From contig JAHWJU010000003.1 of NCBI GenBank assembly GCA_019348255.1, forward strand, positions 1 to 63,514: a stretch of 63,514 nt of DNA, written 5' to 3'. The notes under the pieces are model-generated. The model had not been told where the DNA came from. It saw nothing but the letters and a program-made list of their open reading frames with translations, and ran no database searches. Source of the DNA: Actinomycetota bacterium. GTDB taxonomy: Bacteria > Actinomycetota > Acidimicrobiia > Acidimicrobiales > CADCTF01. The position numbers and the translations under genes were made by a program. Shown here one piece after another: positions 46,638 to 51,606 of this stretch. Each line of letters begins with the position of its first letter. The stretch's first letter is position 1.

Positions 46638-47069
46638 TCAGCGGACCAGGACGACGACGAACGAGCCCAGCATCAAGGCTGCAGGCACGACCAGCGCCAC
46701 CCCCCCGCTCAACAGGGCTGGTCCCACCCAATCATCAAGGGTGAGGGAGTGCCCCGCGCGCCGCACCCGCACTATCCCGACCACCGTCAGCGCCACACCC
46801 ATGACGCCGAGCACGACTTCGATCACGACCACCACCAGACCCAGGAGCAGCATCTGGCCCAACAAACCGGGGAAGTCCCTGACGAGGCACTCCAACACCT
46901 CTTCCATGCCGCACGGCCTCGTCGCCCGCGAAGGAAGGACGCGCCCCGCCAATGCGATCGGCAGCTCCCGGCCGAGGCTGCCGGCTACCACGCCGATGAC
47001 CACCGCGGCGGCCACCACGGGACGCCGGTCTACGGGCGCCCGCAACCAGGAGGTGGTAGACGAGGCCAT
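46638..47069 (-). CDS. hypothetical membrane protein (3 TM-like segments)
   Basis: High GC3 on the minus frame, checked codon by codon. ORF 46638..47141 trimmed to ATG 47069 (MASSTTSW). The start is uncertain (ATG 47141 is also possible). Confidence 0.55.
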   Translation of the reverse strand: MASSTTSWLRAPVDRRPVVAAAVVIGVVAGSLGRELPIALAGRVLPSRATRPCGMEEVLECLVRDFPGLLGQMLLLGLVVVVIEVVLGVMGVALTVVGIVRVRRAGHSLTLDDWVGPALLSGGVALVVPAALMLGSFVVVLVR

Positions 47070-47688
47070 GACCACACCGTTGCAGACCCCTGGGCGTCGG
47101 GGCGCCACGCCCGATCCGCTCACATCTGCCGTGCAGCGCATCGAGGACTCGGCAGTGCTCGATGCTCCTGCGAGAGCGCTGGGCGCCGTCGCCGATCAGG
47201 TGCTGGCGTCGGACCGGGCGCGGTCGGTGCTGCGGGGGGAGCCGCTGGGCCACGCCCTGCACCCACTCCTGACCGACTTCCCGCTCGGAGCATGGATGAG
47301 CACGTCGCTGCTGGACCTCTTCGGCGGGAAGCGGTCCAGGCCGGCGGCCACCGGGCTTCTCGCCTTCGGCATCGCCGCCGCAGTTCCCACCGCGCTGGCC
47401 GGCCTGGCCGAGTGGCGGGACACGACCGGGCGGGCCCGTCGGGTGGGCGTCGTGCACGCCGCGGTCAACAGCACCGCCCTGGTCCTGTACTCGAGCTCCC
47501 TTGTCGCCCGCCTGCGCGGGCGTCACCGTGGCGCGATGGGCCTCGGCCTCGCGGGCGGCACCGTCGCCTTCGTCGGCGGCTACCTCGGTGGCCACATGAG
47601 CCTGGTGCTCAAGGTGGGAACGGCCGACCCGGTGCTGGTCGACGGACCGGAGCTGCCGGACGAGGGACCCTTTGCTCCTCAGTCCTAG
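47068..47688 (+). CDS. DUF2231-like membrane protein
   Basis: ORF 46741..47688 trimmed to ATG 47068 with AGGAGGTGG 12 nt upstream. Contains GHALHPLLTDFPLGAW followed by 3-4 TM helices. Confidence 0.7.
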   Translation: MTTPLQTPGRRGATPDPLTSAVQRIEDSAVLDAPARALGAVADQVLASDRARSVLRGEPLGHALHPLLTDFPLGAWMSTSLLDLFGGKRSRPAATGLLAFGIAAAVPTALAGLAEWRDTTGRARRVGVVHAAVNSTALVLYSSSLVARLRGRHRGAMGLGLAGGTVAFVGGYLGGHMSLVLKVGTADPVLVDGPELPDEGPFAPQS

Positions 47689-47960: not shown

Positions 47961-49340
47961 TCAGCCGGAGCCGAAGTGTCCGGCGGCGCCGAGGTTGACG
48001 ACCGTTCCGTCGGCGCTGACGATCCAGTAGCCGTCGCCGCGGGCGGTGCGGGTCATGCCCACCACGGGCGTGGGGAGGCGCCGGTCGGCGGCCGAGCCGA
48101 GGAAGCCGGCGTTGCCGAAGTTGAAGATCCCGCCGTCCGAGGCGACCAGCCAGTACCCACCGCCGTCGGACGTCGGGCTCATGCCGACGACGGGCTGGTT
48201 GAGCCGGATGTCACCCGTGCTGCCGTGGAAAGCGGCGGTGCCGAAACCGAACATCCCGCCGTCCGCGGCCACGAGCCAGTAGCCGCCCCCGTCGGGAGTG
48301 GGAGCCATGCCCACCACCGGCGAGTTGAGCCGCATGCTGCCGGTGCTTCCGTGGAACCGGGCGGTGCCGAAGCTGAAGATGCCGCCGTCGCCGGCCACGA
48401 GCCAGTAGCCGCCCCCGTCGGGAGTGGGAGCCATGCCCACCACCGGAGAGTTGAGCCGCATGCTGCCGGTGCTGCCGTGGAAGGCGGCGGTGCCGAAGTT
48501 GAAGATGCCGCCGTCGCCCCCGAGTAGCCAGTACCCGCTGCGGTCCGGAGTCGAGGCCGCCCCCACGACCACCCAGTTGAGCGGGATCGTCTCGGCCGAG
48601 CCGAAGCTGCGGGCACTGCCGCGGGGCCGGACGCCGCCGAGGCCGGTGACGGTGGCGTAACCGGCCTCGTCGGCCGCGGCGAGAAGGCCCACCACGTCGG
48701 CTCGGACCGGGTCCCCGCCCATCGTCCCCCCGTCGCCCACCCACTCCCAGTGCCACGGCTCCGGGCAGGCGCTTCCGCCCGGCTCCGCCCATCCCGGGTG
48801 GTTCCACCCGAGGCGGCCGGCATTCGCCTTCAAGAAGCGGTAGCCGGGCGAGGTGAAGGTCATCGGCGAGCCCTCGGAGAAGTCCACGGCCTTGCCCCAC
48901 CCGTGCATCGAGGTCCCCTTCGGCCGGCCGTCGGGGTGGTACTGCGGCGTCGCCGCGCAGGCGCTGTTCCCCCGCTCGCTCCAAGCCGAGGCAACCGCCA
49001 CCTGGCCACTGATGGGCCGGTAGCAGTCGCGGCCGCCGAGGCGCACCCGGGCTCCCGACGCCGACCGGAAGAGCAGGGCCAGGCTGGGCCCCGCCTCCCT
49101 GGCCACACGGCACCCCGGCGCCACCGAGATGAGCCGCTCTGAGGGGACGTAGCCGTTCTCGACGCCGGCCAGCGGCGTCGGGCGGTTGTCGGGCTGTACC
49201 GCCGGCTCGCCGGCCGAGGCCGGCGCCGGCGGCGCTGCCAGCACGACGAGGGTGGCCAGGACGACCGAGACCGACAGCTTGTGGACGCGGGGGGATCGCA
49301 CACCGCGATTGAACCACCGTCCTGGCGGAGCTACCGGCAT
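47961..49340 (-). CDS. secreted VanY-type (LAS/M15B) D-Ala-D-Ala carboxypeptidase domain fused to about six ~42-aa propeller-like repeats
   Basis: Signal peptide LSVSVVLATLVVLAAPPAPASA. Zn motifs SMHGWGKAVD and EPWHWEW. These are followed by repeats of the form GYWLVAxDGGIFxFGTAxFHGSTGxxRLNxPVVGMAPTPDGG. Confidence 0.85.
   Translation of the reverse strand: MPVAPPGRWFNRGVRSPRVHKLSVSVVLATLVVLAAPPAPASAGEPAVQPDNRPTPLAGVENGYVPSERLISVAPGCRVAREAGPSLALLFRSASGARVRLGGRDCYRPISGQVAVASAWSERGNSACAATPQYHPDGRPKGTSMHGWGKAVDFSEGSPMTFTSPGYRFLKANAGRLGWNHPGWAEPGGSACPEPWHWEWVGDGGTMGGDPVRADVVGLLAAADEAGYATVTGLGGVRPRGSARSFGSAETIPLNWVVVGAASTPDRSGYWLLGGDGGIFNFGTAAFHGSTGSMRLNSPVVGMAPTPDGGGYWLVAGDGGIFSFGTARFHGSTGSMRLNSPVVGMAPTPDGGGYWLVAADGGMFGFGTAAFHGSTGDIRLNQPVVGMSPTSDGGGYWLVASDGGIFNFGNAGFLGSAADRRLPTPVVGMTRTARGDGYWIVSADGTVVNLGAAGHFGSG
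48175..48552 (-). repeat. three tandem 126-bp coding repeats; the two at 48301-48426 and 48427-48552 are near-identical over about 100 nt
   Basis: The period is read from the recurrence of ggagccatgcccaccaccgg at 48301 and 48427. A stretch of about 50 nt (gccacgagccagtagccgcccccgtcgggagtgggagccatgcccaccaccgg) occurs twice. Confidence 0.8.
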
Positions 49341-49397
49341 CCACGGCTGGGGCTATGGACGGCGCGCGGCAGCTCGGCCACCGGCTAGAAAGCGCCC

Positions 49398-49610
49398 ATG
49401 AGCGATTACCCCACCAAAGGCAACGAAGATGCGGCCGCGGCCCAGTCCGGCTCGGCCGGAGCGGAGACCGAGACGGGTGTCCCGCCCGAAGAGCTGGGCG
49501 GCGCCGCCCCCCAAGGCACCAACGCCCCCGACTCCCCGGTGCGGGGCGAGCCCGGCAGCCAGGCAGAGGCCGGCTCCGTGATGGACGACTCGACCCCGGT
49601 CGAGGAGTAA
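49398..49610 (+). CDS. possible 70-aa acidic, low-complexity protein
   Basis: ORF-track entry. GC3 is high and the stop is TAA. No clear SD and no motif. Confidence 0.35.
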   Translation: MSDYPTKGNEDAAAAQSGSAGAETETGVPPEELGGAAPQGTNAPDSPVRGEPGSQAEAGSVMDDSTPVEE

Positions 49611-49739
49611 CAACCGCCTTTCGAACAGACGGCTCGGCGGGAGCCGGCCGGCGCTGCGGCACGGCCACGGTTCGACGCGTGCCGCCGGCGCTCCGTGCGC
49701 CTCATGCCGGCACCGCCCCGCCCGACGTCCTAGGGTCAA

Positions 49740-49765
49740 CCCGGTCGTCCTGTCGGACGACCGGG
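49740..49765 (+). promoter_or_regulatory. perfect 11-bp hairpin in the 5' region of the SOD gene
   Basis: CCCGGTCGTCC (49740-50), loop TGTC, then GGACGACCGGG (49755-65). It ends 8 nt before the GGGGGAG SD and 17 nt before the GTG at 49783. Confidence 0.4.
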
Positions 49766-49782
49766 AACCGGTAGGGGGAGAT

Positions 49783-51606
49783 GTGGCGAAGCATCCGTGG
49801 TCGAAGTCGCTCCTGGTGACGGCACTGCTGGCAGCACCGCTGGCGCTGGGCTCCGGACCAGCTCTGGCGGCCACCGATGGCGCATCGGCCACGGCCGACC
49901 TGCGCACCGCCCAAGGCGCCAGCATCGGCACCGTCACCTTCCAGCAGGTGGGGGAACGGGTCCAGGTGCGGGCCCGGGTGACGGCTGGGAGCAATGTGGC
50001 ACCCGGCTTCCACGGTTTCCACGTGCACGAGACGGGCACCTGCACCGCCCCCGGGTTCACCTCTGCCGGTGGTCACTACAACCCCGACACCAAGGGCCAC
50101 GGCGACCATGCCGGCGACCACCCGCCGCTCCTCGTGCAACAAGACGGTTCTGCCAGCGCCGCGTTCACCACCGATGCCTACTCGGTCGACAAGCTGATCG
50201 CCGACGACGTGGCCGTCATCGTCCACGCCAACCCGGACAACTTCGCCAACATCCCGACCCGTTACGTTGCCGGCACCACCACCGGACCCGACGACTTCAC
50301 GGTCGCCACCGGTGACTCGGGGGGCCGTGTGGCCTGTGGCGTGGTCGCCTCGGGGGCGCCGACGCTCCCTGGCGGCTACTGGATGGTGGCCGACGACGGC
50401 GGCGTCTTCGCCCACGGGACGGCGGCCTTCTCCGGCAGCCTCGGCGGCACCCGCCTCAACTCGCCCATCGTGGGGCTCGAGCCGACGCCCAGCGGACAGG
50501 GGTACTACCTGGCCGCCGCCGACGGCGGCATCTTCACCTTCGGGGACGCCTCCTTCGAGGGAAGCACAGGGGCGCTGAAGCTCAACTCACCGGTGGTGGA
50601 CCTCGCCGTGCCGGTCGCCGATGCCAGGGCGGTCCTGGTCGACGCCGCTGGTGACGCGGTGGGCACCGTCACCTTGGCCCAGGAGCCGGGGCGGGTGCGG
50701 GTGACAGTGAGCGCCAGAGGGCTCAAGCCGGGCTTCCATGGCTTCCACCTCCACGACGTGGCGCTGTGCGAGGCACCCGGCTTCACCTCGGCCGCGGGGC
50801 ACTACAACCCGGGTGCTGACGCTCACGGCGGCCACTCCGGCGACAACCCGACGCTGCTGGTCAAAGAGGACGGGACCGTGGAGGAGAGCTTCGTCACCGA
50901 TCGCTACACCGTCGCCGAGGTGGTGGAGGCGGAACTGGCCGTCATCATCCACGCCGGTTCGGACAACTTCGCCAACATCCCCACCCGGTACCAGTCGACG
51001 CAGTCGATCAATCCGGGTCCCGACGACGAGACACTTCGTACCGGCGACGCCGGCCCCCGCGCCGCTTGCGGACTCCTGCGGGCGACCGGCAACACGACCA
51101 AGGGCGGCTACTGGCTGGCCGCCGCCGATGGTGGTGTGTTCGCCTTCGGCGATGCCGGGTTCCTGGGGAGCCAGGGCGGCAGCCGGCTCAACGCCCCGAT
51201 CGTGGCCATGGCGGCGACACCCACCGGCGACGGCTACTGGCTGGCCGCCTCCGACGGGGGGATCTTCGCCTTCGGTGACGCCGGCTTCCACGGCAGCACC
51301 GGCGACCGCAAGCTCAACCAGCCCATCGTGGCCATGGCCGCCACGCCGACGGGGAGGGGCTACGTCCTCGTCGCCCGCGACGGCGGCGTCTTCGCCTTCG
51401 GCGACGCCACCTTCCACGGCAGCACCGGCAGCATCACCTTGAACCAGCCGATCGAAGGGGCGGCACTCACGGCCAGCGGCCACGGCTACTGGTTGTTCGC
51501 CGCCGACGGAGGCGTGTTCGCCTTCGGCGACGCCCCCTTCGAGGGCAGTGAGGGCGCGCTGCGCCTGGCCAGGCCGGTCAGGGGAGGCGCGGCCCGCTCC
51601 GGCTGA
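49783..51606 (+). CDS. sodC: secreted protein with two Cu/Zn superoxide dismutase domains interleaved with six propeller-like repeats (SOD-2 repeats-SOD-4 repeats)
   Basis: Signal peptide LLVTALLAAPLALGSGPALAA. SOD 1 has FHVHETGTC, GGHYNP, HGDHAGDHP and VIVHANPDN. SOD 2 has FHLHDVALC, AGHYNP, HGGHSGDNP and VIIHAGSDN. The repeats read GYWLAAxDGGVFAFGDAxFxGSxG. Confidence 0.85.
   Translation: MAKHPWSKSLLVTALLAAPLALGSGPALAATDGASATADLRTAQGASIGTVTFQQVGERVQVRARVTAGSNVAPGFHGFHVHETGTCTAPGFTSAGGHYNPDTKGHGDHAGDHPPLLVQQDGSASAAFTTDAYSVDKLIADDVAVIVHANPDNFANIPTRYVAGTTTGPDDFTVATGDSGGRVACGVVASGAPTLPGGYWMVADDGGVFAHGTAAFSGSLGGTRLNSPIVGLEPTPSGQGYYLAAADGGIFTFGDASFEGSTGALKLNSPVVDLAVPVADARAVLVDAAGDAVGTVTLAQEPGRVRVTVSARGLKPGFHGFHLHDVALCEAPGFTSAAGHYNPGADAHGGHSGDNPTLLVKEDGTVEESFVTDRYTVAEVVEAELAVIIHAGSDNFANIPTRYQSTQSINPGPDDETLRTGDAGPRAACGLLRATGNTTKGGYWLAAADGGVFAFGDAGFLGSQGGSRLNAPIVAMAATPTGDGYWLAASDGGIFAFGDAGFHGSTGDRKLNQPIVAMAATPTGRGYVLVARDGGVFAFGDATFHGSTGSITLNQPIEGAALTASGHGYWLFAADGGVFAFGDAPFEGSEGALRLARPVRGGAARSG

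What the first reader, a model, noticed from the sequence alone, without database searches (positions are those of the whole stretch)
47961..51606. The same uncharacterised ~42-aa repeat decorates two different extracytoplasmic enzymes encoded head to head
A VanY-type peptidoglycan peptidase (minus strand) and a double Cu/Zn-SOD (plus strand) are transcribed divergently, 442 nt apart. Both carry about six copies of the unit GYWLxAxDGGxFxFGxAxFxGSxGxxxLNxPxVGMAxTPxGx. The spacing and the conserved Gly, aromatic and Asp positions suggest blades of a six-bladed beta-propeller. I cannot assign the unit to WD40, Kelch, NHL, PQQ or RCC1 by eye. A shared module on a wall hydrolase and an oxidative-stress enzyme suggests a common anchoring or ligand-binding function at the cell envelope.
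Basis: partly seen in the sequence, partly recalled or inferred. Interest (0 to 1): 0.65.

Follow-up and report, generated by a model that had tools for sequence, protein, structure and literature searches.

The report
Unnamed six-blade wall-binding propeller module
Two neighbouring secreted enzymes of an uncultured Acidimicrobiales bacterium share a 42-residue repeat that is predicted to fold into a six-bladed propeller; the same unnamed module sits on about 24 secreted proteins of this genome and at the wall-binding end of phage lysins, so it most likely tethers proteins to the cell wall.

Summary
The VanY-type peptidase (47961-49340, -) carries six 42-aa units. The double Cu/Zn-SOD (49783-51606, +) carries 2+4 units.

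- **Fold.** AlphaFold2 models both with high confidence (pLDDT about 94, pTM 0.90-0.91). Foldseek returns only beta-propellers, none close (TM 0.66 or less).
- **Family.** No Pfam or NCBIfam model and no PDB sequence matches the repeat. The only homology signal is remote and RCC1-like.
- **Spread.** The module is not special to these two genes. Twenty-four secreted proteins in this genome carry it, usually as exactly six units, and many are peptidoglycan enzymes. A profile finds 21,377 protein clusters in public data. Within the phylum sample it is abundant only in part of Acidimicrobiales.
- **Function.** Forty-nine viral contigs encode the repeat. In 28 of 47 proteins scanned it follows an Amidase_2 endolysin domain as 2 or 3 C-terminal units, where lysin wall-binding domains sit. 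It also tends to exclude SLH anchors across genomes.
- **Gene pair.** The head-to-head arrangement is kept only in close relatives. The spacer holds an overlooked 70-aa gene.

Verdict: an undescribed, probably RCC1-related, six-bladed cell-wall-binding module. The ligand is unknown.

The parts
47961..49340 (-). Gene for the secreted VanY-type (M15B/LAS) peptidase fused to the six-blade module, 459 aa
   Evidence: ORF. Pfam VanY. More than 80 orthologues with the same architecture in Acidimicrobiales MAGs at 54-87% identity.
49212..49340 (-). N-terminal signal peptide, residues 1-43, predicted cleavage ASA|GEP. The true start codon is probably some 15-20 codons downstream.
   Evidence: Read by eye from the translation. 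The orthologue in L106 and the A2 consensus start later. No signal-peptide predictor was run.
48732..49103 (-). VanY catalytic domain, residues 80-203, with S144-MHGWGKAVD and E194-PWH zinc-site motifs
   Evidence: Pfam PF02557 at 29.3 bits against a cut-off of 25. Motifs located.
47964..48698 (-). Six-blade module of the VanY protein, residues 215-459. It has 18 strands, that is six sets of strands A, B and C, and starts with an A strand (DVVGLL).
   Evidence: AF2 model of residues 205-459: pLDDT 94.6, pTM 0.90. Foldseek returns propellers only. Units listed.
49398..49610 (+). Overlooked small gene in the 'spacer': a 70-aa acidic, low-complexity product
   Evidence: The open frame is conserved in relative L106, where a 73-aa gene is called (73.5% aa identity). 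GC3 is 0.86. Substitutions by codon position are 11/8/25.
49783..51606 (+). Gene for the secreted double Cu/Zn-SOD interleaved with the six-blade module, 607 aa
   Evidence: ORF. Pfam and NCBIfam. More than 100 orthologues with the same SOD-2 units-SOD-4 units layout.
49783..49869 (+). Signal peptide, residues 1-29, predicted cleavage ALA|ATD. There is no lipobox cysteine.
   Evidence: Read by eye from the translation. AF2 pLDDT is below 50 for residues 1-30.
49885..50352 (+). SOD domain 1, residues 35-190. Ligands H80, H82, H98, H106, H109, D112, H148; Arg R182; disulfide C87-C185.
   Evidence: Foldseek hit 1pzs (M. tuberculosis SodC), TMt 0.86, 42% identity; Foldseek does not report which of the two SOD domains it aligned.
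50374..50607 (+). First part of the propeller, residues 198-275: strands B1, C1, A2, B2, C2, A3
   Evidence: Secondary structure of the AF2 model. Units at 198 and 240.
50623..51075 (+). SOD domain 2, residues 281-431, inserted between strands A and B of blade 3. Ligands H322, H324, H340, H348, H351, D354, H390; Arg R426; disulfide C329-C429.
   Evidence: SOD1 plus two units and SOD2 plus two units are a DNA-level duplication at 726-732 nt spacing.
51106..51603 (+). Second part of the propeller, residues 442-607: B3, C3, then blades 4-6, then a terminal A strand inferred to complete blade 1
   Evidence: Strand count in the AF2 model is 6 A, 6 B and 6 C. pTM is 0.91 for the whole chain.

Best explanation
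The 42-residue unit is one blade of a compact six-bladed beta-propeller. Each blade has three regular strands plus a conserved 16-residue return loop. It is a self-contained, non-catalytic module.

The module belongs to a very large family that no library searched here names. The family is expanded in part of the order Acidimicrobiales and is probably a shortened, distant offshoot of RCC1-like repeats.

Its most likely job is to bind a component of the cell's own wall, either peptidoglycan or an attached polymer. That would hold or aim secreted proteins at the envelope of a bacterium inferred to lack an outer membrane. The cargo includes wall-remodelling enzymes such as this VanY peptidase, and protective enzymes such as this double SOD.

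- In the VanY protein the module follows the catalytic domain.
- In the SOD protein the ring is built from 2+4 units, with the second SOD domain inserted into a hairpin of blade 3. Both SOD domains therefore hang from one face of a single ring.
- Phages of such hosts use 2-, 3- or 6-unit versions as the wall-binding end of their endolysins.

Status of each step:
- Shown: the repeat, its spread, the partner domains and the phage-lysin context.
- Predicted: the fold.
- Inferred: ring closure in the SOD protein, oligomeric six-blade rings in the lysins, and wall binding itself. The ligand is unknown.
For: **Fold.** AF2 gives pLDDT 94.6 and pTM 0.90 for the VanY module, and pLDDT 93.9 and pTM 0.91 for the whole 607-aa SOD chain. 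The 50 best Foldseek hits in PDB, which are all that were listed, are beta-propellers.

**Blade number.**
- 20 of 24 proteins in this genome have exactly six detected units.
- The SOD protein has 2+4 units, with 6 A, 6 B and 6 C strands.
- Viral proteins have 2 units (19 ORFs), 3 units (23) or 6 units (4), and none has 4 or 5.

**Extracytoplasmic and modular.**
- All complete paralogues start with a signal-peptide-like N-terminus (read by eye).
- Partners in this genome are VanY, Amidase_2, SpoIID, YkuD+PG_binding_1, 3D, Polysacc_deac_1, CAP, Peptidase_S8, CWB2+BNR, FG-GAP, Calx-beta, CHRD and PA+LVIVD.
- Among 75 diverse representatives there are 62 partner Pfam families, including CHAP, Amidase_3, GH43 and Ig-like spacers.

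**Wall binding.**
- 28 of 47 viral proteins combine Amidase_2 with C-terminal repeat units, and most match PHROGs endolysin families.
- Their neighbours are tail, virion and integrase genes.
- A deposited phage (MK557849.1) has the module near the C-terminus of a 1304-aa protein encoded next to the minor tail protein.
- By established knowledge, endolysins of phages of Gram-positive hosts carry an N-terminal enzyme domain and a C-terminal wall-binding domain.
- Among 151 genomes of the order, 66 have the module and 10 have SLH anchors, with only one overlap (OR 0.13, p 0.043). None of the 50 genomes with five or more matches has SLH (p 0.031).

**RCC1 link.**
- The best PDB profile hit is the HERC2 RCC1-like domain (E 0.0024), and RPGR also appears.
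- hhalign of the unit against genuine RCC1_2 units scores 20.3, against 7.9 +/- 1.9 for column shuffles (0 of 100 reach it). The register is consistent over four blades.
Against: - No binding experiment exists, and the ligand is unknown.
- I could not open the model coordinates. Ring closure and the SOD2 insertion therefore rest on strand counts and pTM.
- The SLH exclusion is not significant at family level in the small sample (p 0.23), and phylogeny was not controlled for.
- LysM is not depleted in genomes that have the module.
- The YkuD and CWB2 paralogues already carry another wall-binding domain. The propeller may therefore bind something other than peptidoglycan, or do something else.
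- Related RCC1_2 propellers occur on proteins that also have SLH anchors (L111). There the propeller is not the anchor.
- The strongly conserved residues could be purely structural.
- The phage protein MK557849.1 'GH25' gave no Pfam or PHROG match at the thresholds used, so its lysin nature rests on the depositor's label.
Confidence: 0.6

Rival explanations
1. The propeller is a protein-protein docking or self-assembly module. It would dock cargo onto a surface scaffold or S-layer-like lattice, as dockerin-cohesin pairs do, and would not bind wall glycan.
For: - Propellers, including RCC1-like ones, are classic protein-interaction platforms (established knowledge).
- Secreted propeller-only proteins exist (contig C7), and multi-propeller proteins exist (P0241 with 7 matched stretches; 11-unit viral ORFs). 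These could serve as scaffolds.
- Surface positions of the unit vary.
Against: - Endolysins act from within on the wall. Their C-terminal domains typically bind wall polymers, not proteins (established knowledge).
- The module recurs on many peptidoglycan enzymes.
- No conserved partner gene was seen next to module genes.
Confidence: 0.15
2. The propeller is a lectin or carbohydrate-binding module for external polymers such as plant, fungal or algal glycans. It would aim secreted degradative enzymes at food substrates rather than at the cell's own wall.
For: - Partners include GH43, proteases, phosphatases, PQQ-like propellers and beta-helix proteins.
- Multivalent propeller lectins with near-identical blades are known, for example RSL, AAL and tachylectin-2 (own knowledge).
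Against: - This does not explain fusion to SOD, VanY, SpoIID, L,D-transpeptidase or CAP.
- It does not explain use by phage endolysins.
- The module is confined to particular lineages rather than to habitats.
Confidence: 0.1
3. The propeller has an activity of its own. It might be a second enzyme, as in the lactonase propeller fused to Deinococcus Cu/Zn-SOD. It might instead be a tight-binding regulator or inhibitor of wall enzymes, as BLIP-II is for beta-lactamases.
For: - A Cu/Zn-SOD naturally fused to a six-bladed lactonase propeller exists (PMC12362111; PDB 9m58 and 9m59 appear).
- BLIP-II is an RCC1-like propeller with three-stranded blades (own knowledge).
- One representative pairs the module with a Beta-lactamase2 domain.
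Against: - The inner A strand is P-[IV]-V-G-M-A, with no polar residues to build a central metal site like the Ca site of SGL lactonases (PMC12362111).
- There is no match to SGL or any enzyme family.
- Fusion to 60 or more unrelated domains is typical of a binding module, not an enzyme.
- 2- and 3-unit lysin tails make a conserved active site unlikely.
Confidence: 0.07
4. The divergent VanY/SOD gene pair is a co-regulated functional unit, coupling wall remodelling to oxidative-stress defence through a shared control region.
For: - The two genes are head to head.
- The arrangement is kept in a close relative, with SOD at 82% and VanY at 80% identity (L106).
Against: - SOD orthologues at 51-56% identity sit in unrelated neighbourhoods.
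- A VanY orthologue at 72% identity sits beside Amidase_2 and SpoIID genes instead.
- The spacer holds its own small gene.
- No Rfam element and no promoter or terminator consensus was found.
Confidence: 0.05

Closest known systems
RCC1-like repeat propellers (Pfam RCC1 PF00415, RCC1_2 PF13540; BLIP-II; RCC1-like domains of HERC2 and RPGR)
   Same: - The blade layout matches in one register over several blades: A strand P-V-V-G (RCC1_2: PVxVsG), B strand GYWLVA (HSLAL), tight D-G-G turn (DGt), C strand IFAFG (VwaWG), then a Gly-rich loop.
- The profile hits the HERC2 RCC1-like domain at E 0.0024 and RPGR more weakly.
- hhalign is clearly above shuffled controls.
- Bacterial RCC1_2 proteins are also secreted surface proteins (L111).
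- BLIP-II also has three-stranded blades of about 40 aa (own knowledge).
   Different: - The period is 42 aa, not 50-60. There are six blades, not seven.
- The Pfam models do not reach threshold. The own genome scores 13.7 bits against 22, and only 3 of 20 domains give weak hits.
- GQLG is replaced by F-x-G-S-T-G.
- The two families coexist in 6 of 20 genomes. This is a separate family, not a local replacement.
Shared cell-wall-binding modules of Gram-positive surface proteomes: SLH domains, CWB2 (Clostridioides difficile Cwp family), choline-binding repeats, LysM, SH3b
   Same: - One non-catalytic module is shared by dozens of secreted proteins with unrelated functional domains, many of them peptidoglycan hydrolases and proteases.
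- The module is borrowed by phage endolysins as their C-terminal domain.
- It is nearly mutually exclusive with SLH across genomes of the order.
   Different: - There is no sequence or fold relationship: this is a propeller, not a three-helix bundle, toprim-like fold, solenoid or small beta domain.
- The ligand is unknown and binding is untested.
- It co-occurs with PG_binding_1 and CWB2 in single proteins.
Deinococcus radiodurans DrSOD: Cu/Zn-SOD fused to a six-bladed SGL lactonase propeller (PMC12362111; PDB 9m58, 9m59)
   Same: A secreted bacterial Cu/Zn-SOD joined to a six-bladed propeller. The structure appears among the Foldseek hits of the SOD model.
   Different: - DrSOD has one SOD domain followed by an SGL-family, Ca-binding, catalytic propeller.
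- Here two SOD domains are interleaved with an unrelated 42-aa-repeat propeller that has no metal-site residues.
- That paper's InterPro search for SOD plus six-blade propeller reported mainly Deinococcus homologues and a few others, and its text does not mention Actinobacteria or Actinomycetota.
Propeller lectins and phage receptor-binding propellers (Ralstonia RSL, a trimer of two-blade chains; staphylococcal phage phi11 gp45 five-bladed platform with a putative GlcNAc site)
   Same: - The blades are highly similar to each other.
- Chains of 2 or 3 blades could assemble into a six-blade ring.
- A phage tail-region protein carries the module.
- Phage propellers that recognise wall glycans are documented (PMC6115969).
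   Different: - No sequence similarity was detected.
- The top Foldseek hits are WD40 proteins, not lectins.
- Oligomerisation and sugar binding are inferred, not shown.
Mycobacterium tuberculosis / M. smegmatis SodC (PDB 1pzs; 6adq chain Y)
   Same: The SOD domains are of the mycobacterial SodC type: NCBIfam SodCMycob at 276 bits, and 1pzs at TMt 0.86 and 42% identity.
   Different: - Mycobacterial SodC is a single-domain lipoprotein held on the membrane (own knowledge).
- This protein has no lipobox, has two SOD domains, and carries the propeller, which may take over the tethering role (inference).

Membership tests
Beta-propeller fold (six-bladed) | Closed ring of repeated antiparallel beta-sheets (blades) around a central axis | tested here: met
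   - AF2 pLDDT 94.6 and pTM 0.90, with 18 strands in six identical sets.
- The 50 best Foldseek hits in PDB are all propellers and cover about 250 of 255 residues.
- This rests on prediction only. The coordinates could not be inspected, so closure is inferred.
RCC1 / RCC1_2 (PF00415, PF13540) | Match to the Pfam model above the gathering score | tested here: not met
   - The two window proteins give no hit at E up to 1.
- The own genome's best hit is 13.7 bits against a cut-off of 22.
- 3 of 20 paralogous domains give weak hits.
RCC1 / RCC1_2 (PF00415, PF13540) | Seven blades of about 50-60 residues with the G-x-V-x-x-W-G-x-N-x-x-G-Q-L-G signature | tested here: not met
   - Here there are six blades of 42 residues.
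- Genuine RCC1_2 units from the same phylum have a 50-aa period.
- The signature is only partly kept, as D-G-G-[IV]-F-x-F-G-D-A.
RCC1 / RCC1_2 (PF00415, PF13540) | Detectable remote homology by profile methods | tested here: inconclusive
   - PDB profile search: HERC2 RCC1-like domain at E 0.0024, RPGR at 0.3-0.6.
- hhalign unit against unit: P 2.5e-4, score 20.3 against a shuffled maximum of 14.4.
- Six-blade alignment: E 0.0055 but HH probability only 6.6%.
WD40, Kelch, NHL, PQQ, FG-GAP, SGL, TolB-type propeller repeats | Match to the corresponding Pfam repeat models | tested here: not met
   - None appears for the module, even at E up to 10, across 20 paralogous domains.
- Foldseek WD40 hits have TM 0.66 or less and 9-21% identity.
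VanY / peptidase M15B (LAS metallopeptidases) | Pfam VanY above cut-off, plus the zinc-site motifs SxHxxGxAxD and ExxH | tested here: met
   29.3 bits against a cut-off of 25. SMHGWGKAVD at residue 144 and EPWH at residue 194. Substrate specificity was not tested.
Cu/Zn superoxide dismutase (SodC, mycobacterial type) | Family model above cut-off, with four Cu ligands, Zn ligands, catalytic Arg and disulfide in each domain | tested here: met
   - Sod_Cu at 196 bits. SodCMycob at 276 bits against a cut-off of 230.
- Both domains keep every ligand.
- 1pzs gives TMt 0.86.
Cell-wall-binding domain of surface proteins and endolysins (functional class, not a homology family) | Non-catalytic module shared by many secreted proteins, and found C-terminal to the enzymatic domain of phage endolysins | tested here: met
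   - 24 proteins in the genome carry it.
- 28 of 47 viral proteins are Amidase_2 followed by C-terminal units.
- The contigs have phage gene context.
Cell-wall-binding domain of surface proteins and endolysins (functional class, not a homology family) | Demonstrated binding to peptidoglycan or a wall polymer | not testable with these tools
   This needs binding assays with sacculi of a cultured carrier, for example Acidithrix ferrooxidans PY-F3 or Acidiferrimicrobium sp. IK.

The most novel reading that the evidence does not exclude
The 42-residue six-blade propeller is a previously undescribed class of cell-wall-binding domain. It would define the main surface-protein display system of a large part of the Acidimicrobiales.

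- It would recognise a lineage-specific wall polymer.
- It would stand in for SLH-type anchoring.
- It can be built from one six-blade chain, two three-blade chains or three two-blade chains.
- It has been captured by the phages of these bacteria for their endolysins and tail proteins.

The double SOD would then be a wall-tethered enzyme in which a whole catalytic domain is spliced into a propeller blade.
Probability: 0.5. Interest if true: 0.72.

Novelty: new variant of a known kind. Interest (0 to 1): 0.6.

Why it matters
Acidimicrobiia are abundant in soils, waters and mine sites but are almost uncultured, and little is known about their envelope.

- **Scale of the gap.** A single unnamed module marks about 24 secreted proteins in this 3-Mb genome. 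Relatives give 23-97 profile matches per genome. The profile finds more than 21,000 protein clusters at 50% identity. This is one of the larger gaps in domain annotation for the group.
- **Annotation.** Naming the module would re-annotate thousands of 'hypothetical' proteins as surface-displayed.
- **Wall biology.** If it binds the wall, it points to a wall component specific to these lineages.
- **Tools.** It would give a ready-made targeting domain for labelling or lysing these bacteria. Phage lysin tails of 2-3 units, about 85-130 residues, are natural minimal versions.
- **Protein evolution.** The 1-, 2- and 3-chain ways of reaching six blades, and the SOD domain inserted inside a blade, are useful cases for studying propeller evolution and design.

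Tried and rejected
- **Named-family assignment.** Pfam and NCBIfam give nothing on the repeat. Recurrent weak Pfam hits to Ribosomal_L24e (15 of 20 domains) and DUF5818 (12 of 20, over a 17-residue hairpin) were judged to be motif noise.
- **PDB sequence search.** A single-sequence search gave only chance-level hits.
- **Vicariance with RCC1_2.** I tested whether the 42-aa family simply replaces RCC1_2 in some lineages. It does not: RCC1_2 is present in 6 of 20 genomes with the module and in 6 of 11 without (Fisher p 0.26).
- **LysM depletion.** LysM is not depleted in genomes with the module.
- **Functional coupling of the gene pair.** Rejected on synteny.
- **Spacer elements.** No regulatory RNA, sigma-70 promoter or intrinsic terminator was found in the spacer or flanks.
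- **Velcro closure in the VanY module.** My first idea was a closure by strand exchange. It is not needed there, because the domain runs A-B-C six times. A terminal A strand probably does close the ring in the SOD protein and in the C-terminal paralogues.
- **Family f15.** The N-terminal domain of the single-copy proteins in this distant family looked LAS-peptidase-like by eye. It got no Pfam or NCBIfam hit and only a weak PDB lead (9flh, E 0.017), so it stays unassigned.
- **Literature.** Searches for the motif strings, for Acidimicrobiia plus propeller, and for endolysin plus propeller or RCC1 found no description of this module.
- **Model coordinates.** They are not exposed to the Python box, so blade contacts could not be measured.

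Full report
**1. The observation**

Two long ORFs lie at the stated coordinates.

- The minus-strand product (47961-49340, 459 aa) matches Pfam VanY over residues 80-203, at 29.3 bits against a cut-off of 25. It keeps the LAS zinc-site motifs SMHGWGKAVD (residue 144) and EPWH (residue 194).
- The plus-strand product (49783-51606, 607 aa) has two Sod_Cu domains (196 bits) and matches NCBIfam SodCMycob at 276 bits against a cut-off of 230. Both domains keep every Cu and Zn ligand, the catalytic Arg and the disulfide pair.
- Both proteins begin with signal-peptide-like sequences. Neither has a lipobox (read by eye).

The 42-residue unit is real.

- In the VanY protein, units start at 227 (degenerate), 269, 311, 353, 395 and 437 (short).
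- In the SOD protein, units start at 198 and 240, then after the second SOD domain at 442, 484, 526 and 568.
- Units are 30-90% identical within and between the two proteins.
- At DNA level the repeat has a 126-nt period at about 70% identity, so the copies are old rather than recent.

**2. Not a two-gene curiosity**

An HMM of the 12 units was run over all ORFs of the 2.99-Mb assembly, which is 92.9% complete. It finds 24 proteins, and 20 of them have exactly six detected units.

- Where the N-terminus is complete, every one starts with a signal-peptide-like sequence (read by eye).
- Partner domains are VanY, Amidase_2, SpoIID, YkuD+PG_binding_1, 3D, Polysacc_deac_1, CAP, Peptidase_S8, CWB2+BNR, FG-GAP (two proteins), Calx-beta, CHRD+DUF4394, PA+LVIVD (two proteins) and Sod_Cu.
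- One protein (contig C7) is just a signal peptide plus the module.
- Three module genes (S8, Amidase_2, SpoIID) cluster on contig C64.

**3. The fold**

- AF2 on the VanY module (residues 205-459, with 79 orthologues) gives pLDDT 94.6 and pTM 0.90. There are 18 strands in six identical sets.
- Each 42-residue unit contributes an inner strand (P-[IV]-V-G-M-A), a second strand (G-Y-W-L-V-A), a D-G-G turn, a third strand ([IV]-F-x-F-G), and a conserved 16-residue loop (D-A-x-F-x-G-S-T-G-x-x-x-L-N-x-P) leading to the next blade. This mapping combines with the logo of 2,444 units.
- Foldseek against PDB returns only beta-propellers among the 50 best hits listed. They are mostly 7-bladed WD40 proteins, with TM 0.66 or less and 9-21% identity. 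The fold class is clear, and there is no close solved relative.
- PDB sequence searches find no relative either.

**4. The SOD protein**

- The full-length model has pLDDT 93.9 and pTM 0.91 over 607 residues. That is hard to obtain unless all parts pack as one body.
- The strand order is B,C | A,B,C | A - [SOD2] - B,C | A,B,C | A,B,C | A,B,C | A. That makes six A, six B and six C strands.
- The simplest reading is one six-blade ring in which:
  - the C-terminal A strand completes blade 1;
  - SOD2 is inserted in the A-B hairpin of blade 3;
  - SOD1 enters at the equivalent point of blade 1. Both SOD domains then hang from the same face, inferred to be two blades apart.
- DNA repeats show that [SOD + two units] was duplicated internally, at 726-732 nt spacing.
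- The layout is conserved in more than 100 orthologues from Acidimicrobiales MAGs at 46-83% identity.
- The SOD domains are closest to M. tuberculosis SodC (1pzs, TMt 0.86, 42% identity).

**5. What family is it?**

- No Pfam or NCBIfam model reaches threshold.
- RCC1_2 gives 13.7 bits in this genome against a cut-off of 22, and weak hits in 3 of 20 domains.
- There is, however, a consistent remote signal:
  - A profile of 20 paralogous modules hits the RCC1-like domain of HERC2 (E 0.0024) and, more weakly, that of RPGR.
  - One viral homologue hits Pfam WD40_RLD.
  - hhalign of the unit against 53 genuine RCC1_2 units from the same phylum scores 20.3, against 7.9 +/- 1.9 for 100 column shuffles (maximum 14.4).
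  - A six-blade alignment keeps one register for strands A, B and C over four blades (E 0.0055, HH probability only 6.6%).
- Genuine RCC1_2 has a 50-aa period and typically seven blades. This module has 42 aa and six blades.
- The two families coexist in 6 of 20 genomes, so this is a separate family.
- I file it as a probable distant RCC1-like offshoot, not as a member.

**6. Distribution**

- The profile finds 21,377 representative clusters at 50% identity (E up to 1e-3), and 11,234 at E up to 1e-30.
- Both full-length homologue searches hit the limit of 8,000 scored candidates.
- Across 401 genomes of the phylum, 18 have the module.
- Across 151 genomes of the order, 66 have it.
- All 13 genomes of the window's own family have 23-53 matches. 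Other families of the order range from 0 to 97.
- Named carriers are Acidimicrobiales and Acidimicrobiaceae MAGs, plus the cultured Acidithrix ferrooxidans PY-F3 and Acidiferrimicrobium sp. IK.
- A distant actinobacterial family (f15) has one or two proteins of about 400-430 aa, with divergent units behind an unassigned N-terminal domain.
- Among 75 diverse representatives, 62 Pfam families occur as partners. They include fn3, TIG and Big spacers, S8, A4, CHAP, Amidase_3, GH43, phosphatases and cadherin-like domains.

**7. Function**

The partner list already suggests an envelope-targeting module. Two further tests bear on it.

*Phages.*
- tblastn against deposited phages finds the module (E 7e-21) near the C-terminus of a 1304-aa protein of Caudovirales GX15bay. 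The depositors annotated it 'glycoside hydrolase family 25', and it is encoded right after the minor tail protein.
- IMG/VR holds 49 loci.
- Their ORFs are mostly 230-380 aa, with only 2 or 3 units at the very C-terminus.
- 28 of 47 proteins scanned have an Amidase_2 domain, and most match PHROGs endolysin families.
- Neighbouring genes are minor tail, virion structural, integrase and phage helicase or RNAP genes.
- By established knowledge, lysins of phages that infect Gram-positive hosts have an N-terminal enzyme domain and a C-terminal wall-binding domain. The module sits exactly in that position.
- Unit counts are 2 (19 ORFs), 3 (23 ORFs) and 6 (4 ORFs), and never 4 or 5. This fits six-blade rings made by trimers, dimers or single chains (inference). 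A known analogy is the RSL lectin, a trimer of two-blade chains (own knowledge).

*SLH anchors.*
- In 151 genomes of the order, SLH anchors occur in 10 and the module in 66. Only one genome has both, and it has a single module match (OR 0.13, p 0.043).
- None of the 50 genomes with five or more module matches has SLH (p 0.031).
- This is suggestive only. Phylogeny is uncontrolled, and the family-level test in the smaller sample is not significant (p 0.23).
- LysM is not depleted.

**8. Against a catalytic role**

- The inner strand has no polar residues that could build a central metal site like that of the SGL lactonase propeller fused to Deinococcus SOD (PMC12362111).
- No enzyme family matches the module.
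- That paper's InterPro survey of SOD-propeller fusions reported mainly Deinococcus homologues and did not mention Actinobacteria. This fits the module being invisible to current signatures, although I could not query InterPro, Gene3D or SUPERFAMILY myself.

**9. The gene pair**

- The head-to-head arrangement is kept in a close relative (L106: SOD 82%, VanY 80%, upstream DUF2231 gene 81% identity).
- It is not kept around SOD orthologues at 51-56% identity.
- It is not kept around a VanY orthologue at 72% identity, which instead sits next to Amidase_2 and SpoIID genes.
- The 442-nt spacer contains a conserved 70-aa acidic ORF (49398-49610, +). Its GC3 is 0.86, and substitutions are biased to the third codon position.
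- No Rfam family, sigma-70 consensus or intrinsic terminator was found.
- The adjacency therefore looks incidental.

**10. Verdict**

The module is a compact six-bladed propeller. It is probably a distant RCC1-like lineage, it is unnamed in the libraries available here, and no paper found in these searches describes it. Its most likely role is wall binding or targeting, and the phage-lysin context is the strongest argument for that. The ligand, the oligomeric assembly of the short versions and the ring closure in the SOD protein all remain to be shown.

Noticed in passing
window 49398-49610 (+): The 'intergenic' region between the two genes holds a 70-aa acidic, low-complexity ORF (MSDYPTKGNEDAAAAQ...STPVEE). 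It is conserved as a called 73-aa gene in a close relative. GC3 is 0.86, and substitutions are biased to the third codon position. Its function is unknown.
   Followed up: partly
window 49212-49340 (-): The annotated ATG of the VanY ORF is probably too far upstream. Orthologues, and the L106 gene, begin roughly 15-20 codons later, at the hydrophobic part of the signal peptide.
   Followed up: no
window 46741-47688 (+): The upstream gene is 81% identical over 194 residues to a DUF2231-family membrane protein gene that occupies the same position in relative L106. The block DUF2231 / VanY / small ORF / SOD is syntenic among close relatives only.
   Followed up: partly
G000 contig C64: 6013-8121 (+), 8167-10074 (+), 12356-14614 (-) (loci L002, L017, L013): Three module-bearing genes (Peptidase_S8, Amidase_2, SpoIID) sit within 8.6 kb. 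In another MAG (L105) the VanY-module orthologue lies directly beside Amidase_2 and SpoIID genes of similar size. This may be a conserved wall-hydrolase cluster.
   Followed up: partly
L131, L133, L134 (IMG/VR contigs, about 42 kb): One of these lysin-carrying viral contigs (L131, the only one measured) has only 45% G+C, far below the roughly 70% of the Acidimicrobiales carriers. It encodes a phrog_4291-type RNA polymerase. The module, or its hosts, may therefore extend beyond high-GC lineages. L133 and L134 carry the same 265-aa ORF but their G+C was not measured.
   Followed up: no
L126:3915-7115 and L127:4119-7193 (viral contigs); P0241 (1261 aa): Some proteins carry 11 units, or several separate matched stretches. 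They probably hold two or more propellers in tandem. Their role (higher avidity or a scaffold) was not examined.
   Followed up: no
L121:783-1967 (+), L122:946-2247 (-) (family f15, other Actinomycetota): Single-copy proteins of about 400-430 aa join divergent copies of the repeat to an N-terminal domain with SEHKEGRAFDW and HTDHVHFSF motifs. That domain has no Pfam or NCBIfam match, and only a weak PDB lead (9flh, a 'LysM domain-containing protein', E 0.017).
   Followed up: partly
L111 (G162:C255): A genuine RCC1_2 protein from another actinobacterial genome combines six 50-aa RCC1 repeats with fn3-like and SLH-like C-terminal sequence (read by eye). In that relative of the fold, the propeller is not the anchor.
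   Followed up: no
L173:2983-6897 (phage MK557849.1, QBQ74878.1): The depositor's label 'glycoside hydrolase family 25' for this 1304-aa tail-region protein was not reproduced by Pfam or PHROGs at the thresholds used. The record has five separate places that match the module.
   Followed up: partly
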